DNA of 19,672 nucleotides from a virus (taxonomy: Duplodnaviria; Heunggongvirae; Uroviricota; Caudoviricetes): positions 1-19,672 of the IMG/VR virus record IMGVR_UViG_2531839666_000030; one strand, given 5' to 3'. The position numbers and the translations under genes were made by a program. Position 1 is the first letter of the stretch; each line of letters opens with the position of its first letter. This document shows, piece by piece, positions 10,507 through 15,805 of this stretch. The notes under the pieces are model-generated. The model was not told the origin of the DNA. It did not search any database and was given only the letters and a program-made list of their open reading frames with translations.

Positions 10507-11012
10507 GAGGGAAACTGATATCCGCTATTCATGTGGCAAAGCGCGAGCTTGCCCTGGATGATGAGACCTACACATTCGTACTACTGGCAGCCACCGGCAA
10601 AACCAGTTGCCGGGATATGTCACCCGGTGAGTTATCCCGCGTGCTGGATGTTTTCAAAAAACGCGGTTTTAAAGTGCGTCAGAAACCGGTTAACCGGGCC
10701 TTAAAACCGGGTACGGTGACCGCCAAAATTCGCGCCATCTGGAAAGTGATGCACCGGCAGGGCTTTATCTCTGATGGTGCGGAAACCGCTCTTAACCGCT
10801 GGGTGAAATCGCAGACGGCCGCGCAGAACGGCGGCGAAGGTGTGGCAAACTGGCAGTGGCTGGAGCAACACCCCGCCCTGGCCTCAGATGTGCTGGAGCG
10901 TCTCAAGCGATGGCACCGCCGCAAAATGCTGGCCGCGATGGGAATGCCCGAACGCACGCTGATGGGGTATGACGCCGTTTGCAGGCAGTATGAAAAATCA
11001 CTTCCCCGTTAA
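10503..11012 (+). CDS. gemA: GemA-like protein (Mu gp16 family, DUF1018-like)
   Basis: N-terminal KLISAIHVAKRELALDDETYTFVLLAATGKTSCRDMSPGELSRVLDVFKKRGF matches the conserved GemA/gp16 signature as recalled. Lies immediately upstream of mor as in Mu. Confidence 0.78.
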   Translation: MRGKLISAIHVAKRELALDDETYTFVLLAATGKTSCRDMSPGELSRVLDVFKKRGFKVRQKPVNRALKPGTVTAKIRAIWKVMHRQGFISDGAETALNRWVKSQTAAQNGGEGVANWQWLEQHPALASDVLERLKRWHRRKMLAAMGMPERTLMGYDAVCRQYEKSLPR

Positions 11013-11016
11013 CCCC

Positions 11017-11047
11017 AAATCCCGCCACAACGCGGGATTTTTATTTT
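11017..11047 (+). terminator. intrinsic (Rho-independent) terminator candidate between gemA and mor
   Basis: 9-bp stem AAATCCCGC (11017-11025) / GCGGGATTT (11032-11040), 6-nt loop CACAAC, followed by TTTTATTTT. Confidence 0.7.
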
Positions 11048-11081
11048 AAACTTACCGGGAACGCGAGAACCGGAGGCTGAT

Positions 11082-11507
11082 ATGGCAGAAACTCAGATGA
11101 GCATGTTTGGTGGTGACAGTGAGCAACTGCACGCCCTTATCGACCGCCTTGATGACATCCCTGATGATGTTCTCAAAAAGAACTGGCCGCGGACCCTGTC
11201 AGAACTGGTTGAAGTCACCGGCGCAGAACTTCAGCGTCAGGGGATTGAGCCGGTACTGGCCGGTAAACTGGCACGCAAGGTGGCTGCGGCTCAGGCAGCC
11301 TATATGGGCGGACGGGGTTATTACCTGCCGGTCGGGGAATCTCTCTTTGCCGAGCTGCGAAACAATGAGATATTTTCGCGCTGGGACCGGGGCGAGAAAA
11401 TTGAATCCCTTCGCCGCCATTACCGGATGTCAGAAACCCAGATTTATACCGTCATACGTGAACAGCGCCGTCTGCATCTGGCAAGAACGCAACCGCCACT
11501 TTTCTGA
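11082..11507 (+). CDS. mor: Mor/C-family transcriptional activator (middle/late gene activator)
   Basis: 141 aa. Acidic N-terminus and C-terminal GGRGYYLPVGESLFAELRNNEIFSRWDRG...SETQIYTVIREQRR parallel the Mu Mor/C fold (GGxxxYIP...HTH) as recalled. Sits between gemA and lys. Confidence 0.8.
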   Translation: MAETQMSMFGGDSEQLHALIDRLDDIPDDVLKKNWPRTLSELVEVTGAELQRQGIEPVLAGKLARKVAAAQAAYMGGRGYYLPVGESLFAELRNNEIFSRWDRGEKIESLRRHYRMSETQIYTVIREQRRLHLARTQPPLF

Positions 11508-11578
11508 TATTCCGCAAAGCCTGCCGCCTTTCCTTCACCGTTACGCTGACTCAGAGAACATCATGAGACAGCGTAACA

Positions 11579-12079
11579 ATGCCAAAACTCCCCGCACCAC
11601 TGCGTAAAAAGCTGATTGCCCTTGTTCTGGCCGGTGCCGGGACGTTCACGATTGCCACGCATTACACCGGTTACTGGGAAGGGAAAGAAAACTCCACGTA
11701 TATCGATCCCACCGGTACACCCACCATCTGTTACGGCCATACCGGCCCGGATGTGAAACCGGGTATGACCCTGACGGATGAAGAATGCCTGGAACTACTG
11801 GAAAAGGACATGAAATGGGCCTTTGCGGCCATTGATCGGCGTGTTCAGGTGCCGCTTACCCGTGGTCAGACGGTGGCGCTGGCTTCGTGGATCTTCTGGG
11901 CCGGTGAAACGAACTTCCGCAACTCCACGCTTCTGCGCCTGATCAATGCCGGGCAGATGCCCGCGTCCTGTAAGCAGTATATCCGCTGGATTTATTCAAA
12001 GGGGGTGAAACTCCCCGGCCTTGAGGCCCGCCGTTCGGCGGATGAATGGTTATGTCGCTACGACTTGCCGAAAGTCTGA
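11579..12079 (+). CDS. lys: endolysin, T4-lysozyme-like (GH24) with N-terminal SAR-type signal-anchor
   Basis: 166 aa. Gly/Ala-rich weakly hydrophobic N-terminus KKLIALVLAGAGTFTIAT, then catalytic-region motifs YWEGKENSTYIDPTGTPTICYGHTG (E...D...T triad) similar to Mu Lys as recalled. Confidence 0.88.
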   Translation: MPKLPAPLRKKLIALVLAGAGTFTIATHYTGYWEGKENSTYIDPTGTPTICYGHTGPDVKPGMTLTDEECLELLEKDMKWAFAAIDRRVQVPLTRGQTVALASWIFWAGETNFRNSTLLRLINAGQMPASCKQYIRWIYSKGVKLPGLEARRSADEWLCRYDLPKV

Positions 12080-12152
12080 ACCGCTTCTGGCGACCGCTCA
12101 TGATAGCGCTGCTGTGTGCGGTACTGCTGTTACGGGGTGTCCTGTGGCTGCG

Positions 12153-12542
12153 GTGAATAATGCCTTACCGGCCCTGATTGCCGGGGCGTGCATGGCGGCG
12201 CTGGGGATTATCGCTGTACTGGTTGCTGCGATATGGGGAATGCACCAGAAGACGCAGCGCCTTGAGGACAATAATCAGGTACTTGTACGTGAGCGGGATG
12301 AGGCGCGTCAGGTGCTGGCAAATCAGCAGCACACCCTGCAACTCATTTCACAAATCAGTGAGGCGGCCACGAATGAAAAGCAACAGAACATTCAGCACAC
12401 CGAGGAGCAACAGAGCGTTGTCCGCCGGTCGCTGGCAGCAGTGCCTGCTGCCTCTGCCCCTGTTCCTGATGATGTGGCTGATCGGGTGCGCCGGGCCGTC
12501 TGTGAAATACGTGCCTGTGAAGCCGGTGCCGATCCCCGCTGA
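12153..12542 (+). CDS. i-spanin (Rz-like inner-membrane spanin); start uncertain (GTG 12153, ATG 12192 or ATG 12042)
   Basis: N-terminal TM segment LPALIAGACMAALGIIAVLVAAIWG followed by a charged, Gln/Glu-rich predicted coiled coil. Immediately follows the endolysin and contains an embedded out-of-frame lipoprotein gene. Confidence 0.6.
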   Translation: MNNALPALIAGACMAALGIIAVLVAAIWGMHQKTQRLEDNNQVLVRERDEARQVLANQQHTLQLISQISEAATNEKQQNIQHTEEQQSVVRRSLAAVPAASAPVPDDVADRVRRAVCEIRACEAGADPR

Positions 12543-12744
12543 ATGGCTGGCTGACTGCCTGGTCCCTCCTGCGCCGGAGCCGTTCACGTTTGGGGCATCG
12601 GTCACTTACAACCTGCAACTGCTGGCGGTGATCAAGAACTGCAACGTGGACAAGGCCAGTATTCGTCGTCTGGAGGCGCGGCGACAACATGAATTTACTG
12701 ATATGGCCGGAACGCCTGCTGTTCCGGCAGGAAAGACGAAGTAA
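12373..12744 (+). CDS. o-spanin (Rz1-like outer-membrane lipoprotein), overlapping the i-spanin gene in the +1 frame
   Basis: Lipobox L-I-G-C after a hydrophobic stretch (LLPLPLFLMMWLIGC), then a proline-rich mature region CAGPSVKYVPVKPVPIPAEW...PPAPEP. Start may instead be the in-frame TTG near 12418, which is preceded by GAGGAG. Confidence 0.72.
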   Translation: MKSNRTFSTPRSNRALSAGRWQQCLLPLPLFLMMWLIGCAGPSVKYVPVKPVPIPAEWLADCLVPPAPEPFTFGASVTYNLQLLAVIKNCNVDKASIRRLEARRQHEFTDMAGTPAVPAGKTK

Positions 12745-12754
12745 GGAAAAAGGT

Positions 12755-12982
12755 ATGGATGATTCAGATCGTGCTCAGGCTGTGATGGAGCGGGGATCAG
12801 AACGCGCCCTTTGTAACCGGCTGACACGTAAGCGCCGGGCAATGGATGCTCCGGGCAGACGTGTCTGCGCGGACTGTGGCGGAGAGATCCCCGCCGCACG
12901 TCTTGTTGCTGTGCCGGATGCCATCCGTTGTGTGAACTGCCAGAACATCATGGAGGCCCGTCATGTGGGTCAGCATCGTTAA
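12755..12982 (+). CDS. TraR/DksA-family C4 zinc-finger protein
   Basis: 75 aa from ATG 12755, which has AAGGAAAAAGG upstream. C-terminal CADCGGEIPAARL...PDAIRCVNCQ is the CxxC-(17)-CxxC signature of the DksA/TraR zinc finger. Confidence 0.78.
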   Translation: MDDSDRAQAVMERGSERALCNRLTRKRRAMDAPGRRVCADCGGEIPAARLVAVPDAIRCVNCQNIMEARHVGQHR

Positions 12983-13274
12983 AGATTATGTTGTGCCGAT
13001 CCTTTCGGCGACGGCAACCGCTGGCGGGATATTCATGGCGCTGATGCGCAAAACGTTTGTCCCCCGCGAGGCCTTTGAAAAACTCTCCGACCGCGTTGAG
13101 AAGGTGGAAACCCGCCTGTCGTCACTGCCGACAGAAGCTGAGGTCAACCGTCTGAATGTGGAAATCGTGACCCTGCGGGGTGAACTGAAAACCACGAACG
13201 CCACGCTCCGCTCTGTCTCCTATCAGAACGAACTGCTGCTGGAGCAGGCTGTAAGGAAAAAAACGAATGAGTGA
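12963..13274 (+). CDS. single-pass membrane protein with coiled-coil (DUF2730-like); possible lysis-associated protein
   Basis: 103 aa. N-terminal TM VVPILSATATAGGIFMAL, then heptad-like region EKLSDRVEKVETRLSSLPTEAEVNRLNVEIVTLRGELK. GGAGG upstream of the ATG. Function inferred only from position after the lysis genes. Confidence 0.5.
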   Translation: MWVSIVKDYVVPILSATATAGGIFMALMRKTFVPREAFEKLSDRVEKVETRLSSLPTEAEVNRLNVEIVTLRGELKTTNATLRSVSYQNELLLEQAVRKKTNE

Positions 13275-13557
13275 TTTCATTACTGAAGATCAGCGTCTGG
13301 TCATTCTGCGGTCGCTGGCAGATTACAACGGTGAACTGGGTGAATCCGTGCTCCAGGACTGTCTGGATGATTACGGCCACCGCGTGTCCCGCGACACCGT
13401 TCACACCCACATTGCCTGGCTTGCCGAGCAGGGACTGGTGCGTAAGCGCACGCTCGTTAACGGTTATTTCATCGCGGAACTGACCGGCCGGGGGCAGGAT
13501 GTGGCGGAAGGCCGCGCCAGCGTTCCAGGTGTGAAGAAACCACGCGCAAGGGGGTAA
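13267..13557 (+). CDS. hypothetical protein (96 aa), position-equivalent to Mu gp26
   Basis: ORF with AAGGA Shine-Dalgarno; no recognised domain. Confidence 0.5.
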   Translation: MSDFITEDQRLVILRSLADYNGELGESVLQDCLDDYGHRVSRDTVHTHIAWLAEQGLVRKRTLVNGYFIAELTGRGQDVAEGRASVPGVKKPRARG

Positions 13558-13559
13558 CG

Positions 13560-14141
13560 ATGGACAAGCCGACGCGTGGACGCGTGCGCAAGGTGGATTT
13601 GCTCCCCGACAGCATCCGTAAGCCACTGCTGGAAATGCTGCGTGAAAAACGTCTGACGCAGGTCCAGATACGCGAGGAAATCAACCGTCTGATCCGTGAG
13701 GCGGGCCTGCCGGAAGAGCAGCAGCTTTCACCGGCGGCCATCAGCCGGGAAGCCTCCCGTAATGAGCTGATTGCCCGTAACCTGCGTGATTTACGCGAGC
13801 AGACAAAAGCCATGATGGCCGAACTGGGAGACAAGCCAACCGGTGAAACCACAGCGCTGATTCTGGAGATGTCCCGCGCCCTGATGTACCGCCGTCTGCG
13901 TGCCGCGACCGAATCCCTGAACAGTGACAGCGACGTGGATATGCGTCTTATTAAGGACATCCTCCTGTCAGCACAGCGTGCGGAAAGTGCCGCCGAGCGC
14001 AGCATTAAGCGTGAAAAAGAAATCCGGGCCGCATTTGCTGAAGAGATGGCAAACGCCGTCACCGACGAGCTGCGCGGCGTGGACGGGATGAGTGAACAGC
14101 TTGAGTCCCGTATTAAGGGGATTCTGTTGGGTAAAGCCTGA
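13560..14141 (+). CDS. Mu gp27 (D)-like protein, putative small terminase subunit
   Basis: 193 aa, highly charged and helical, directly upstream of and translationally coupled (TGATG) to the large terminase. Assigned by synteny with Mu D/gp27. Confidence 0.6.
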   Translation: MDKPTRGRVRKVDLLPDSIRKPLLEMLREKRLTQVQIREEINRLIREAGLPEEQQLSPAAISREASRNELIARNLRDLREQTKAMMAELGDKPTGETTALILEMSRALMYRRLRAATESLNSDSDVDMRLIKDILLSAQRAESAAERSIKREKEIRAAFAEEMANAVTDELRGVDGMSEQLESRIKGILLGKA

Positions 14142-15805
14142 TGAATAACGCCGAAGAACTCTCCCCCTTACTGACGAATACCGTCTCCACCCGCAAAATT
14201 GATCTGGCCGGTGAAAAAGCCCTGCTGGGCGTGGATGTGCCGGACAGCCTTGATTTGCCCGGTGATATGCCGGTATTTCTGGATTATCAGGCCCGCTGGT
14301 TTGAGGATGAAAGCGAGGTCTGCATCGCGGAAAAATCCCGCCGCACCGGGCTTACCTGGGCGGAAGCCGGGCGTAACGTCATTACCGCCGCAAAGCCTAA
14401 GCGGCGTGGTGGCCGCAATGTGTTTTATGTGGGGTCAAAGCAGGAGATGGCGCTGGAATATATTTCTGCCTGCGCACTGTTCTCCCGTGCCTTTAACCAG
14501 CTGGCAGATGCTGATGTGTATGAGCAGACCTTCTGGGATCGGGATAAAAAAGAAGAAATTCTGACCTACATGATCCGCTTTCCGAACAGTGGATTCAAAA
14601 TTCAGGCACTGTCTTCCCGTCCGTCAAACCTGCGCGGCCTTCAGGGGGATGTGGTGATTGATGAAGCCGCGTTCCACGAGTCACTGGATGAGCTTCTCAA
14701 GGCGGCAATGGCGCTTACCATGTGGGGCGCGCGCGTGCGTATTATCTCCACGCATAACGGCGTCGATAATCTGTTTAATCAGTACATTCAGGAAGCCCGC
14801 GAAGGGCGCAAGGATTACAGCGTCCACCGCATTACCCTGGATGATGCCATTGCGGACGGGCTGTACCGTCGTATCTGTTATGTCACCGGCCGCGAATGGT
14901 CACCGGAAAGCGAGCAGAAGTGGCGTGATGATCTCTACAAAAACGCCCCGACCCGTGAGGATGCCGACGAGGAATACGGCTGTATCCCGAAAAAATCCGG
15001 CGGTGCCTATATTCCTCACGCGCTTATTGAAATGGCGATGATCCGCGACATCCCGATTCTGACGTTTGAAGCCCCGGACGACTTCATCAGCCGTGCCGCA
15101 TGGCTGCGTGAATCGGAGGTTTTAACCTGGTGTGAAGAACATTTAAAACCGCTTTTAGAGGCGTTAAATTCCCGTTCCCGCTTCAGCTTCGGGGAAGACT
15201 TTGCCCGCACCGGAGACCTGTCCTGTTTTGTGCTGCTGGAAATCACTGAATCCCTGGCAAAACGCGAGGTGTTTCGCGTGGAGCTGCGCAACCTGCCGTA
15301 TGCCCAGCAGGAGCAGGTGATGATGTACATCCTGACCCGCGTTCCGGCGCTGGTCGGTGCGGCGTTCGACGCCACCGGTAACGGCGGCTATCTGGCCGAA
15401 GCCGCGCTGCTGGCCTTTGGCCCGGACATCATCGACTGCGTGATGTTATCGCCGAAGTGGTACGGCGAGTGGATGCCAAAACTGAAGGCCGAGTTTGAGG
15501 ATCAGAATATCCTCGTCGCCCGCCATCAGACCACGCTTGATGATTTGCGCCATGTGAAGGTGGTGAACGGTATCCCGCAAATCGACAAGGGGCGCACGAA
15601 GGACCAGAACGCAACGGCTGTGAACGCCCGCCGCCATGGCGATTTTGCCGTGGCGCTCTGTATGGCAAACCGGGCGTCATACATGGAGGGCTTCATCCTG
15701 GATGAATCAGCCTGTCAGGCGCTGCCGGAGCGGTCGCGGGCCATGGAGGGCGGTTATCGTGATGACGATGAGGCATATCATGAATTTGATCGGGGGTGCT
15801 GGTAG
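14141..15805 (+). CDS. terminase large subunit (Mu gp28/E-like)
   Basis: 554 aa. Walker-B-like VVIDEAAF and synteny (after gp27-like, before portal). Confidence 0.75.
   Translation: MNNAEELSPLLTNTVSTRKIDLAGEKALLGVDVPDSLDLPGDMPVFLDYQARWFEDESEVCIAEKSRRTGLTWAEAGRNVITAAKPKRRGGRNVFYVGSKQEMALEYISACALFSRAFNQLADADVYEQTFWDRDKKEEILTYMIRFPNSGFKIQALSSRPSNLRGLQGDVVIDEAAFHESLDELLKAAMALTMWGARVRIISTHNGVDNLFNQYIQEAREGRKDYSVHRITLDDAIADGLYRRICYVTGREWSPESEQKWRDDLYKNAPTREDADEEYGCIPKKSGGAYIPHALIEMAMIRDIPILTFEAPDDFISRAAWLRESEVLTWCEEHLKPLLEALNSRSRFSFGEDFARTGDLSCFVLLEITESLAKREVFRVELRNLPYAQQEQVMMYILTRVPALVGAAFDATGNGGYLAEAALLAFGPDIIDCVMLSPKWYGEWMPKLKAEFEDQNILVARHQTTLDDLRHVKVVNGIPQIDKGRTKDQNATAVNARRHGDFAVALCMANRASYMEGFILDESACQALPERSRAMEGGYRDDDEAYHEFDRGCW

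What the first reader, a model, noticed from the sequence alone, without database searches (positions are those of the whole stretch)
12755..12982. Phage-encoded TraR/DksA-like zinc finger between lysis and packaging genes
The C4 zinc finger CxxC-(17)-CxxC typical of DksA/TraR is present in a 75-aa protein. Phage and plasmid TraR homologs are known to bind the RNA polymerase secondary channel and reprogram host transcription (for example rRNA promoter inhibition). Its placement in the late region suggests host-transcription manipulation late in infection.
Basis: partly seen in the sequence, partly recalled or inferred. Interest (0 to 1): 0.45.

Follow-up and report, generated by a model that had tools for sequence, protein, structure and literature searches.

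The report
Mu-like prophage TraR-family zinc-finger gene
This is a real 75-residue gene for a TraR-family protein (small factors that plug into bacterial RNA polymerase and turn down ribosome synthesis) in the late operon of a Mu-like prophage of E. coli; standard annotation already labels it this way, so it is ordinary and experimentally untested.

Summary
Window 12755..12982 (+) encodes a 75-aa protein with CxxC-17-CxxC. It passes the curated cut-offs of Pfam zf-dskA_traR (45.9 vs 24.9 bits) and NCBIfam TIGR02419, the phage/plasmid TraR family (77.8 vs 59.7). The Arg matching TraR R48 is present and invariant in 130 homologs. The AlphaFold model's best PDB match is RNAP-bound TraR. The window is a Mu-like prophage found in 231 of 5426 complete E. 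coli genomes. RefSeq already names the protein "TraR/DksA family transcriptional regulator". The gene is packed tightly between the Rz1 spanin gene and the gp25/gp26/gp27/gp28 homologs, downstream of a Mu C-like late activator. This slot is shared by Mu-like phages of Vibrio, Pseudoalteromonas, Pasteurella, Shewanella and Burkholderia. Two nuances are new: all experimentally tested phage homologs sit in early regions, and the three TraR residues that contact the beta' Si3 insertion (needed for full activation, not for inhibition) are not conserved here. The most likely function is a late-expressed RNAP secondary-channel inhibitor of host rRNA and r-protein promoters. That function is inferred, not shown. 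Interest is low.

The parts
12755..12982 (+). CDS of the 75-aa TraR-family C4 zinc-finger protein (positional counterpart of Mu gp24)
   Evidence: ORF; Pfam PF01258 45.9 bits; TIGR02419 77.8 bits against a cut-off of 59.7; PHROG 54; identical RefSeq CDS WP_000342749.1
12743..12747 (+). Shine-Dalgarno-like AAGGA, 7 nt upstream of the ATG; it overlaps the TAA stop of the Rz1/LysC gene (12742-12744)
   Evidence: read directly from the sequence
12758..12775 (+). Codons 2-7, D-D-S-D-R-A: the DxxDxA motif, which in TraR and DksA reaches the RNAP active-site region
   Evidence: phmmer alignment to TraR chains 5w1s and 6n57; D2 121/130, D5 121/130, A7 110/130 in homologs; functional role of the motif from PMC9239242
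12866..12877 (+). First zinc knuckle, C38-A-D-C41
   Evidence: sequence; C38 and C41 invariant in 130/130 homologs
12899..12901 (+). [quoted passage not shown]
   Evidence: alignments; invariant in 130/130 homologs; role from PMC9239242
12929..12940 (+). Second zinc knuckle, C59-V-N-C62, at the start of the C-terminal helix
   Evidence: sequence; C59 130/130 and C62 128/130; AF2 helix 60-73
11017..11040 (+). Intrinsic-terminator-like hairpin with a T-run after the gemA/gp16-like gene; likely end of the early transcript
   Evidence: sequence
11082..11507 (+). Mor-family activator, closer to Mu C (late activator) than to Mu Mor
   Evidence: Pfam Mor 111 bits; 39% identity and 105 bits to Mu C against 27% and 51.6 bits to Mu Mor
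11579..12079 (+). Endolysin (phage lysozyme), first gene of the presumed late lys operon
   Evidence: Pfam Phage_lysozyme 127 bits; RefSeq annotation
12114..12542 (+). Rz-like i-spanin gene
   Evidence: PHROG 214; RefSeq CDS at L001 12515-12943, which is the window coordinate plus 401
12502..12744 (+). Rz1-like o-spanin gene (LysC); it ends 10 nt before the TraR-like start
   Evidence: PHROG 3001; RefSeq lysC
12963..13274 (+). DUF2730 gene (Mu gp25 homolog); its start overlaps the last 20 nt of the TraR-like gene
   Evidence: Pfam DUF2730 71 bits; PHROG 736
13267..13557 (+). Mu gp26-like small winged-helix protein
   Evidence: PHROG 436; 62.5% identical to Mu gp26
13560..14141 (+). Mu gp27-like small terminase subunit
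   Evidence: Pfam Phage_Mu_Gp27 116.6 bits; PHROG 426
14141..15805 (+). Mu gp28-like large terminase subunit
   Evidence: 72.6% identical to Mu gp28

Best explanation
The gene encodes a TraR-family RNA-polymerase-binding factor of a Mu-like prophage. The proposed mechanism is as follows. The gene is transcribed as an internal gene of the C-activated late lys operon (lysozyme, Rz, Rz1, TraR-like, gp25, gp26, terminase and onward) and translated from its own ribosome-binding site. The 75-aa protein folds into a long N-terminal helix, a C4 zinc globule and a C-terminal helix. It inserts the N-terminal helix into the secondary channel of host RNAP, so that D2/D5/A7 (DxxDxA) approach the active-site region while R49 holds the beta' rim helices. 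As with F TraR and lambda Orf73, and without needing ppGpp, this would destabilise open complexes at rRNA and ribosomal-protein promoters. That would free host RNAP, NTPs and amino acids for late phage gene expression and virion production. The three TraR residues that contact beta' Si3 and are needed for full activation (E46/R49/K50) are A47/L50/V51 here, so I predict the protein is biased towards inhibition, with weak activation. What is shown: the ORF, family membership, motif conservation, predicted fold, synteny and operon-like packing. What is inferred: RNAP binding, promoter targets, late timing and benefit to the phage.
For: Family membership: TIGR02419 77.8 bits (cut-off 59.7), PF01258 and PHROG 54. 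The best solved-structure relatives are TraR (5w1s, 6n57; E about 2e-5), then DksA. Functional residues: DxxDxA aligns with TraR D3/D6/A8, and R49 aligns with TraR R48 and DksA R125. Across 130 full-length homologs, D2 and D5 are each 121/130, A7 110/130, the four Cys 128-130/130, R49 130/130, P54 124, Q63 112 and E67 117. Fold: AlphaFold2 gave mean pLDDT 83.2 with helix 3-31, a zinc region and helix 60-73. The Foldseek top PDB hit is TraR in the RNAP complex 6n57_M (probability 1.00, TM 0.52), followed only by DksA, DksA2 and YbiI. Precedent: all 5 phage homologs tested bound RNAP, inhibited rrnB P1 and complemented a dksA deletion. D3N and D6N variants of lambda Orf73 lost activity, and Orf73 raised burst size (PMC9239242). 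Late operon: the activator just upstream is C-like. A terminator lies before it, and there is no sigma-70-like promoter or credible terminator from 11100 to 14300. Genes abut or overlap. GC content matches the neighbours. The slot is shared by Mu-like phages of Vibrio, Pseudoalteromonas, Pasteurella, Shewanella and Burkholderia. It is also seen in 26 of 80 IMG/VR loci, 22 of them with DxxDxA intact. Si3 triad: E46A, R49A and K50A TraR inhibit nearly normally but activate about 2-fold less (PMC6970531). Here the residues are A47/L50/V51.
Against: There is no experimental datum for this protein or for any homolog in a Mu-like late operon. All tested homologs are only about 35% identical or less and lie in early or regulatory regions. 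The positional counterpart in Mu itself, gp24, keeps only the zinc finger. It has E-D-Q-N-R-A in place of DxxDxA, lacks the invariant Arg and fails Pfam. So the slot does not always carry a canonical TraR. In one pairwise comparison with an 83%-identical E. coli variant, dN/dS is 0.50 against 0.03-0.15 for neighbouring genes. The counts are small (15.5 non-synonymous and 9.5 synonymous differences), and all 13 changes fall in residues 11-47. Some C4 zinc-finger proteins classed as TraR/DksA do not act like DksA (PMC9239242). Late timing rests on homology with Mu and on a simple consensus scan, not on transcript data.
Confidence: 0.7

Rival explanations
1. The RNAP-binding mechanism is the same, but the relevant targets are the phage's own promoters. 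The protein would act as a timing switch: shutting off early (Pe-type) or middle transcription, or assisting the C-dependent late promoters. Reprogramming host rRNA synthesis would not be its main role.
For: The gene sits in the first late transcript, immediately after the C-like activator and the lysis genes. The KS10 authors proposed this kind of role for KS10 gp7, which occupies the same slot (PMC2628397). TraR itself increases transcription from F-element promoters in vitro (section title). PMC9239242 explicitly leaves this open for other homologs.
Against: [quoted passage not shown] The Si3-contact triad needed for full activation is absent here, which argues against a co-activator role. 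No phage promoter was identified or tested here.
Confidence: 0.17
2. It is a zinc-ribbon accessory protein of the lysis or packaging module, for example acting with gp25, gp26 or the small terminase, or binding nucleic acid. It would have no regulatory action on RNAP, and the TraR similarity would reflect only the shared fold.
For: Synteny with DUF2730, gp26, gp27 and gp28 is tight and recurrent. Mu gp24 in this slot keeps the C4 finger but not DxxDxA or the invariant Arg. The stop of the TraR-like gene overlaps the start of the gp25 homolog. dN/dS is relatively high.
Against: The residues under the strongest conservation are exactly those that matter for RNAP action: DxxDxA, R49 and the C-terminal helix residues Q63 and E67. 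Close homologs also occur outside any Mu-like packaging context, for example next to a primase in L099 and next to P2-like tail genes in L107. Pseudomonas phage JBD25 has the gp25-gp28 block without a zinc-finger gene.
Confidence: 0.09
3. It is a decaying, functionless remnant in a domesticated or defective prophage.
For: dN/dS is 0.5 in one comparison. The Mu counterpart is degenerate.
Against: The ORF is intact with a good ribosome-binding site. It is 100% identical over the 501-base query in every listed record, with 231 genomes matched in all. The key motifs are unchanged even in variants at 83-87% identity. The surrounding prophage genes are intact.
Confidence: 0.04

Closest known systems
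F-plasmid TraR (PDB 5W1S, 6N57; NCBIfam TIGR02419 family)
   Same: The length is similar (75 vs 73 aa) and the architecture is the same: an N-terminal helix, a C4 zinc globule and a C-terminal helix. DxxDxA is at the extreme N-terminus, R48 is matched, and Q62 and E66 are matched by Q63 and E67. The protein scores above the family cut-off.
   Different: Identity is only about 35%. The protein scores far below the F-TraR equivalog model NF010268 (24.8 vs 108 bits), so it is not an ortholog. The Si3-contact residues E46/R49/K50 are A/L/V here. It is encoded in a phage late operon rather than a conjugation operon.
Phage TraR homologs tested in PMC9239242 (lambda Orf73, P2 Orf82, VP882 Orf61, VHML Orf8, X. 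bovienii Gp34)
   Same: These are phage-borne proteins of about 73 aa in the same family, carrying DxxDxA and the C4 finger. The closest is VP882 Orf61, at 35% identity over 74 residues. The expected mechanism is the same: RNAP binding and rrnB P1 inhibition independent of ppGpp.
   Different: According to the paper, the phage-encoded tested homologs lie in early, lysis-lysogeny or replication regions. This one lies in the late lysis-packaging operon. The four whose sequences were aligned here (lambda Orf73, P2 Orf82, VP882 Orf61, X. bovienii Gp34) and TraR all have Arg-Arg where this protein has Arg-Leu.
E. coli DksA
   Same: It shares the zinc-finger domain. The local sequence RRLEARP in DksA is ARLVAVP here, including Leu at the position of TraR R49. 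DksA also carries a DxxDxA tip and uses the same binding site on RNAP.
   Different: DksA is 151 aa with a coiled coil and ppGpp-site-2 residues. This protein fails the DksA equivalog models (25.5 vs 115.5 bits and 23.2 vs 289 bits) and has a single N-terminal helix like TraR.
Mu gp24 and the gp24-slot genes of Mu-like phages (KS10 gp7, HS6 gp35, Pmp9_0011, MuM16-2 p23, Vibrio phage NVP1028O_23)
   Same: The genomic slot is identical: after the lysis genes and before the gp25(DUF2730)-gp26-gp27-gp28 block. Most are annotated as DksA/TraR zinc-finger proteins, at 27-40% identity to this one.
   Different: Mu gp24 itself (64 aa) has lost DxxDxA, the invariant Arg and the C-terminal helix, and is not recognised by Pfam. 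The window's protein is a canonical family member.

Membership tests
TraR family (NCBIfam TIGR02419 C4_traR_proteo; Pfam PF01258 zf-dskA_traR) | Scores above the curated profile cut-offs | tested here: met
   TIGR02419 77.8 bits against 59.7, covering residues 2-67 of the protein and positions 1-64 of the 64-position profile. PF01258 45.9 bits against 24.9.
TraR family | C4 zinc finger, CxxC-17-CxxC | tested here: met
   C38/C41 and C59/C62 with 17 residues between them. The four Cys are present in 128-130 of 130 homologs.
TraR family | N-terminal DxxDxA motif (TraR D3, D6, A8), required for function | tested here: met
   D2-D-S-D5-R-A7 aligns with TraR D3-E-A-D6-E-A8. Conserved in 121, 121 and 110 of 130 homologs. 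The requirement is documented in PMC9239242.
TraR family | Size of about 73 aa with a three-part fold: a single N-terminal helix (no coiled coil), a zinc globule and a C-terminal helix | tested here: met
   75 aa. The AF2 model has pLDDT 83.2 with helices 3-31 and 60-73. The best PDB fold match is TraR 6n57_M, probability 1.00, TMq 0.52. The TM-score is moderate because the relative helix orientation is uncertain in a free monomer model.
TraR family | Arg equivalent to TraR R48 (binds the beta' rim helices) | tested here: met
   R49 aligns with TraR R48 and DksA R125 and is invariant in 130/130 homologs.
TraR family | Residues contacting beta' Si3 (TraR E46, R49, K50), needed for full activation | tested here: not met
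   The equivalents are A47, L50 and V51. In the homolog set, position 50 is Leu in 82 and Arg in 25 of 130. Alanine variants of TraR at these positions still bind and inhibit but activate about 2-fold less (PMC6970531). This is therefore a modulating feature, not a family-defining one.
TraR family | Binds the RNAP secondary channel, inhibits rrnB P1 without ppGpp and complements a dksA deletion | not testable with these tools
   This requires purified protein and genetics. The precedent is 5 of 5 tested homologs (PMC9239242).
F-plasmid TraR ortholog (NCBIfam NF010268 equivalog) | Scores above the equivalog cut-off | tested here: not met
   24.8 bits against 108. The protein is a family member, not the F TraR ortholog.
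DksA (NCBIfam TIGR02420, NF008045) | Full-length DksA with coiled coil and ppGpp-binding residues; scores above the equivalog cut-off | tested here: not met
   25.5 against 115.5 bits and 23.2 against 289 bits. Only the C-terminal 61 residues of DksA align.
Mu-type late (lys) operon gene | Lies between the C-type activator/lysis genes and the terminase genes, co-oriented, with no internal promoter or terminator; syntenic with Mu gp22-gp28 | tested here: met
   Gene order and overlaps. The C-like activator is 39% identical to Mu C. The scan found no sigma-70-like promoter in 10800-14300; the only '+'-strand terminator-like sites after 11040 are weak ones inside coding sequence. Actual late transcription was not measured.

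The most novel reading that the evidence does not exclude
The gp24-slot TraR-like proteins of Mu-like (transposable) phages may form a distinct functional subclass. They would be made only with the first late transcript and would lack the beta' Si3 contact triad. They would act as inhibition-only plugs of host RNAP that shut down rRNA and r-protein promoters (and possibly the phage early promoter) at the early-to-late switch. C-activated late promoters, being resistant, would then capture the polymerase. If so, this is a late-phase host shut-off device not described for Mu, with Mu gp24 as a degenerate descendant.
Probability: 0.25. Interest if true: 0.45.

Novelty: already known. Interest (0 to 1): 0.2.

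Why it matters
[quoted passage not shown] That would extend the TraR/Orf73 paradigm from early-region genes to a late-operon gene. It would also offer a natural variant lacking the Si3-contact residues for separating inhibition from activation. As it stands, this is a correctly annotated member of a well-studied family and does not change current understanding.

Tried and rejected
1. The word-indexed protein search returned only close E. coli variants. The exhaustive phmmer search was needed to see the family.

2. The genome-contig scan mostly hit unrelated zinc-finger stretches in Acidobacteriota and other MAGs. None showed Mu-like neighbours by tblastn, so it was uninformative for synteny.

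Both were redone with alignments A3 and A4.

4. I looked for an association between Leu at position 50 and the Mu-like context. There is none: Mu-like loci are RL 12 and RR 10; other loci are RR 33 and RL 8. The idea was rejected.

5. I asked whether X. bovienii Gp34, a tested homolog of unknown context, belongs to this clade. Its sequence from Table S4 resembles P2 Orf82, and BLAST aligns only residues 38-69 of the query, at 34% identity. The idea was rejected.

6. Moron or own-promoter hypothesis: there is no sigma-70-like promoter, no flanking terminators, and GC equals that of the neighbours. Rejected.

7. The terminator-like hairpin at 12875-12898 inside the gene has a poor T-tract (CGTCTTGTTG) and simply spans the codons of the zinc-finger region. 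I treated it as chance: 6 sites were found against 3.0 +/- 1.6 expected.

8. Minus-strand ORFs overlapping the gene (for example 12606-12899, 97 aa) were not examined further. The plus-strand gene and its neighbours account for all family matches obtained for this stretch.

9. Rfam and ARAGORN found nothing in the window.

10. Literature searches found no functional study of a TraR-like gene in a Mu-like late operon.

11. The Mor row of the dN/dS table was discarded because of a 1-codon length difference between the two genes.

Full report
**Observation**

Window 12755..12982 (+) is an ATG-to-TAA ORF of 75 codons. It encodes MDDSDRAQAVMERGSERALCNRLTRKRRAMDAPGRRVCADCGGEIPAARLVAVPDAIRCVNCQNIMEARHVGQHR. 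An AAGGA sits 7 nt upstream of the ATG and overlaps the stop codon of the preceding Rz1/LysC gene.

The match to the family is far above chance:
- Pfam zf-dskA_traR: E 5.4e-12, 45.9 bits against a cut-off of 24.9.
- PHROG 54 'DksA-like zinc-finger protein': E 9e-20 over residues 1-74.
- NCBIfam TIGR02419 'phage/conjugal plasmid C-4 type zinc finger protein, TraR family': E 6.8e-22, 77.8 bits against a cut-off of 59.7, full length.

A mechanical 97-aa extension from 12689 exists, and many automatic gene calls use it. It overlaps LysC, has no ribosome-binding site and would bury the N-terminal motif. RefSeq uses the 12755 start, and 74 of 130 homologs have their Met at that alignment column.

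**Where it is**

The window is a Mu-like prophage of E. coli. A 501-base segment around the gene is found in 231 of 5426 complete E. coli genomes, 125 of them at 99% identity or more. Many of the listed strains are O157:H7 or carry STEC designations. The same DNA is annotated as an 'inserted Bacteriophage Mu-like phage' inside two Stx-converting phages. RefSeq already names the protein WP_000342749.1 'TraR/DksA family transcriptional regulator'.

The gene order is as follows:
- a gemA/gp16-like gene
- a terminator-like hairpin at 11017-11040
- a Mor-family activator (11082-11507)
- lysozyme (11579-12079)
- Rz-like gene (12114-12542)
- Rz1/LysC (12502-12744)
- the TraR-like gene (12755-12982)
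- DUF2730, the gp25 homolog (12963-13274)
- gp26-like gene (13267-13557)
- gp27, small terminase (13560-14141)
- gp28, large terminase (14141-15805)
- portal and further head genes

The Mor-family protein is closer to Mu C, the late activator (39% identity, 105 bits), than to Mu Mor (27%, 51.6 bits). Genes in the block abut or overlap. The TraR-like stop overlaps the gp25-homolog start by 20 nt. The scan found no sigma-70-like promoter in 10800-14300, and after the hairpin at 11017-11040 only weak terminator-like sites inside coding sequence. GC content matches the neighbours. By homology with Mu, where C activates Plys and the lys transcript runs through the packaging and head genes (established knowledge of Mu), this is an internal gene of the first late operon. 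The timing is an inference; no transcript data were available.

**What the protein is**

By sequence, the closest solved structures are F-plasmid TraR (5w1s and 6n57, E about 2e-5), then DksA and YbiI. In those alignments D2, D5 and A7 pair with TraR D3, D6 and A8, which form the DxxDxA motif. R49 pairs with TraR R48 and DksA R125.

An exhaustive phmmer search of 1.84 billion cluster representatives found 820 clusters at E <= 0.001. Most of the 150 listed are 65-80 aa and match over nearly the whole query. In 130 full-length homologs, conservation falls on the functionally defined positions:
- D2: 121/130
- D5: 121/130
- A7: 110/130
- the four Cys: 128-130/130
- R49: 130/130
- P54: 124/130
- R58: 116/130
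- Q63: 112/130
- E67: 117/130

An AlphaFold2 model built on 50 homologs has mean pLDDT 83.2, with helix 3-31, a zinc-binding region and helix 60-73. This matches the three-element architecture described for TraR (PMC6970531). Its best PDB match is TraR in the RNAP complex (6n57_M, probability 1.00, TM 0.52). The next matches are only DksA, DksA2 and YbiI; every further match has E above 1.

**Differences from the characterised members**

The protein is about 35% identical to TraR and to VP882 Orf61, and less similar to lambda Orf73, P2 Orf82 and X. bovienii Gp34 (sequences from Table S4 of PMC9239242). It fails the F-TraR and DksA equivalog models. It is thus a family member, not an ortholog of either.

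TraR residues E46, R49 and K50 form the interface with the beta' Si3 insertion. Alanine substitutions leave binding and inhibition nearly intact but halve activation (PMC6970531). The equivalents here are A47, L50 and V51. The local sequence ARLVAVP resembles DksA's RRLEARP more than TraR's ARRKIFP. TraR and the four tested homologs aligned here all have Arg-Arg at this point. In the homolog set, Leu is the majority residue at position 50 (82 against 25 Arg). There is no association between Leu and the Mu-like context. I predict a factor that inhibits well and activates poorly. This is an inference.

**Is the genomic slot conserved?**

Yes. The same arrangement, with lysis genes, then a small DksA/TraR-type zinc-finger gene, then DUF2730, gp26, the small terminase and the large terminase, occurs in:
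- Vibrio phage 1.028.O
- Pseudoalteromonas phage HS6
- Pasteurella phage Pmp9
- Shewanella phage MuM16-2
- Burkholderia phage KS10, where gp7 was noted in 2008 and suggested to control head-gene transcription (PMC2628397)

Among 80 IMG/VR loci encoding relatives, 26 have at least two of DUF2730, gp26, gp27 and gp28 directly downstream. Seven of those are copies of this same prophage. DxxDxA is intact in 22 of the 26.

Other relatives sit in other contexts. One is next to a primase, an early context (L099). Another lies between Rz and tail-completion and baseplate genes of what looks, by gene order, like a P2-type late region (L107). Pseudomonas phage JBD25 has the gp25-gp28 block without a recognisable zinc-finger gene.

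In Mu itself the slot is occupied by gp24, a 64-aa protein. It keeps CxxC-17-CxxC but has E-D-Q-N-R-A in place of DxxDxA. It lacks the invariant Arg and the C-terminal helix, fails Pfam, and matches the family profile only over the zinc finger (hhalign probability 60%).

**Mechanism proposed**

The shown elements are the ORF, family membership, conservation of the RNAP-contacting motifs, the predicted fold, and the operon-like packing and synteny.

The inferred chain is this. After C-dependent activation of the lys promoter, the protein is made together with the lysis and packaging proteins. It binds host RNAP in the secondary channel, placing DxxDxA near the active site and R49 on the rim helices. 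Independently of ppGpp, it inhibits promoters with short-lived open complexes, namely the rRNA and r-protein promoters. This diverts RNAP and precursors to phage late expression.

The precedent is strong. All five phage homologs tested bound RNAP at the DksA site, inhibited rrnB P1 and complemented a dksA deletion. Lambda Orf73 D3N and D6N variants lost activity, and Orf73 increased phage yield (PMC9239242). According to the paper, the tested phage-encoded homologs are encoded in early or regulatory regions. A late-operon member has not been examined.

**Rivals**

1. The mechanism is the same but the targets are phage promoters, giving an early-to-late switch or cooperation with C. This is compatible with the position and with the KS10 proposal. 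It is weakened by the missing activation contacts and by the lack of any Orf73 effect on lambda promoters.

2. The protein is a zinc-ribbon accessory of the lysis or packaging module that does not act on RNAP. The tight synteny, the degenerate Mu gp24 and a dN/dS of 0.50 suggest this. That ratio comes from one pair, with 15.5 non-synonymous and 9.5 synonymous differences, against 0.03-0.15 for neighbouring genes. Against it, conservation is concentrated on the RNAP-acting residues. All 13 substitutions in the 83%-identical variant lie in residues 11-47. Close relatives also occur outside any packaging context.

3. The gene is a decaying remnant. The intact ORF, the ribosome-binding site and the population-wide identity argue against this.

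**Novelty and verdict**

Nothing here is unexpected. A curated family model, PHROGs and RefSeq already label the gene. The family's mechanism is well worked out, and the same slot was noticed in a Mu-like phage in 2008. The modest points of interest are the conserved late-operon position, in contrast with the early-region homologs studied so far, and the missing Si3-contact triad. I rate it as already known, with low interest (0.2). The most novel reading not excluded, a late-phase inhibition-only RNAP plug characteristic of transposable phages, gets a probability of about 0.25.

Noticed in passing
L002:2525-2719 (phage Mu gp24, NC_000929 11524-11718): Mu's own gp24, annotated 'hypothetical protein', occupies the slot of the TraR-like gene. 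It keeps CxxC-17-CxxC but has EDQNRA in place of DxxDxA, lacks the invariant Arg and the C-terminal helix, and fails Pfam. It looks like a degenerate TraR-family descendant.
   Followed up: partly
window 11017-11507: Only one Mor-family gene is annotated across the prophage's early and late regions, and it is C-like. It sits directly after the gemA/gp16-like gene and a terminator-like hairpin, and directly before lysozyme. Mu has separate mor and C genes with gp18-20 between them. This suggests a two-tier rather than three-tier transcription cascade.
   Followed up: partly
window about 325-564 (L001 726-965) and the flanks: RefSeq annotates a truncated DUF1367-family pseudogene, with a DUF7146 gene upstream, immediately before the prophage's repressor end. 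The same Mu-like DNA is annotated as an insertion inside two Stx-converting phages. The Mu-like element has therefore apparently transposed into another prophage.
   Followed up: no
window about 18711-18790 (-), L001 19112-19191: PGAP annotates a 'tRNA-OTHER' on the minus strand between the head-morphogenesis (F-like) and virion-morphogenesis (G-like) genes. ARAGORN finds no tRNA in the window, and Rfam finds nothing at gathering threshold.
   Followed up: partly
window 12689-12982: Many automatic gene calls in public data use a 97-aa version starting at the ATG at 12689 (for example P0001, with 337 member sequences, and P0003, with 162). This version overlaps LysC and would add 22 residues in front of the N-terminal DxxDxA. 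It is probably a start-site mis-call.
   Followed up: partly
window 12755-12982 against L130:4001-4228: The TraR-like gene evolves faster at the protein level than its neighbours. dN/dS is 0.50 against 0.03-0.15 for lysozyme, DUF2730, gp26 and gp27. All 13 substitutions lie in residues 11-47, which cover the middle of the helix, the linker and the first half of the zinc domain. This is one pairwise comparison with small counts.
   Followed up: partly
window 14141-15805: The 554-aa Mu gp28-like large terminase has no Pfam-A match at E <= 0.01, despite 72.6% identity to Mu gp28. RefSeq calls it 'hypothetical protein'.
   Followed up: no
L107:3983-6100 (IMG/VR contig 3300008717_000018): In a contig whose gene order looks P2-like, a TraR-family gene (41% identical to the window's) lies between lysozyme/Rz and ORFs followed by large downstream ORFs that I read as tail-completion and baseplate genes. 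Those neighbours were not searched against any family library. Late, lysis-adjacent placement of TraR-like genes may therefore not be restricted to Mu-like phages.
   Followed up: partly
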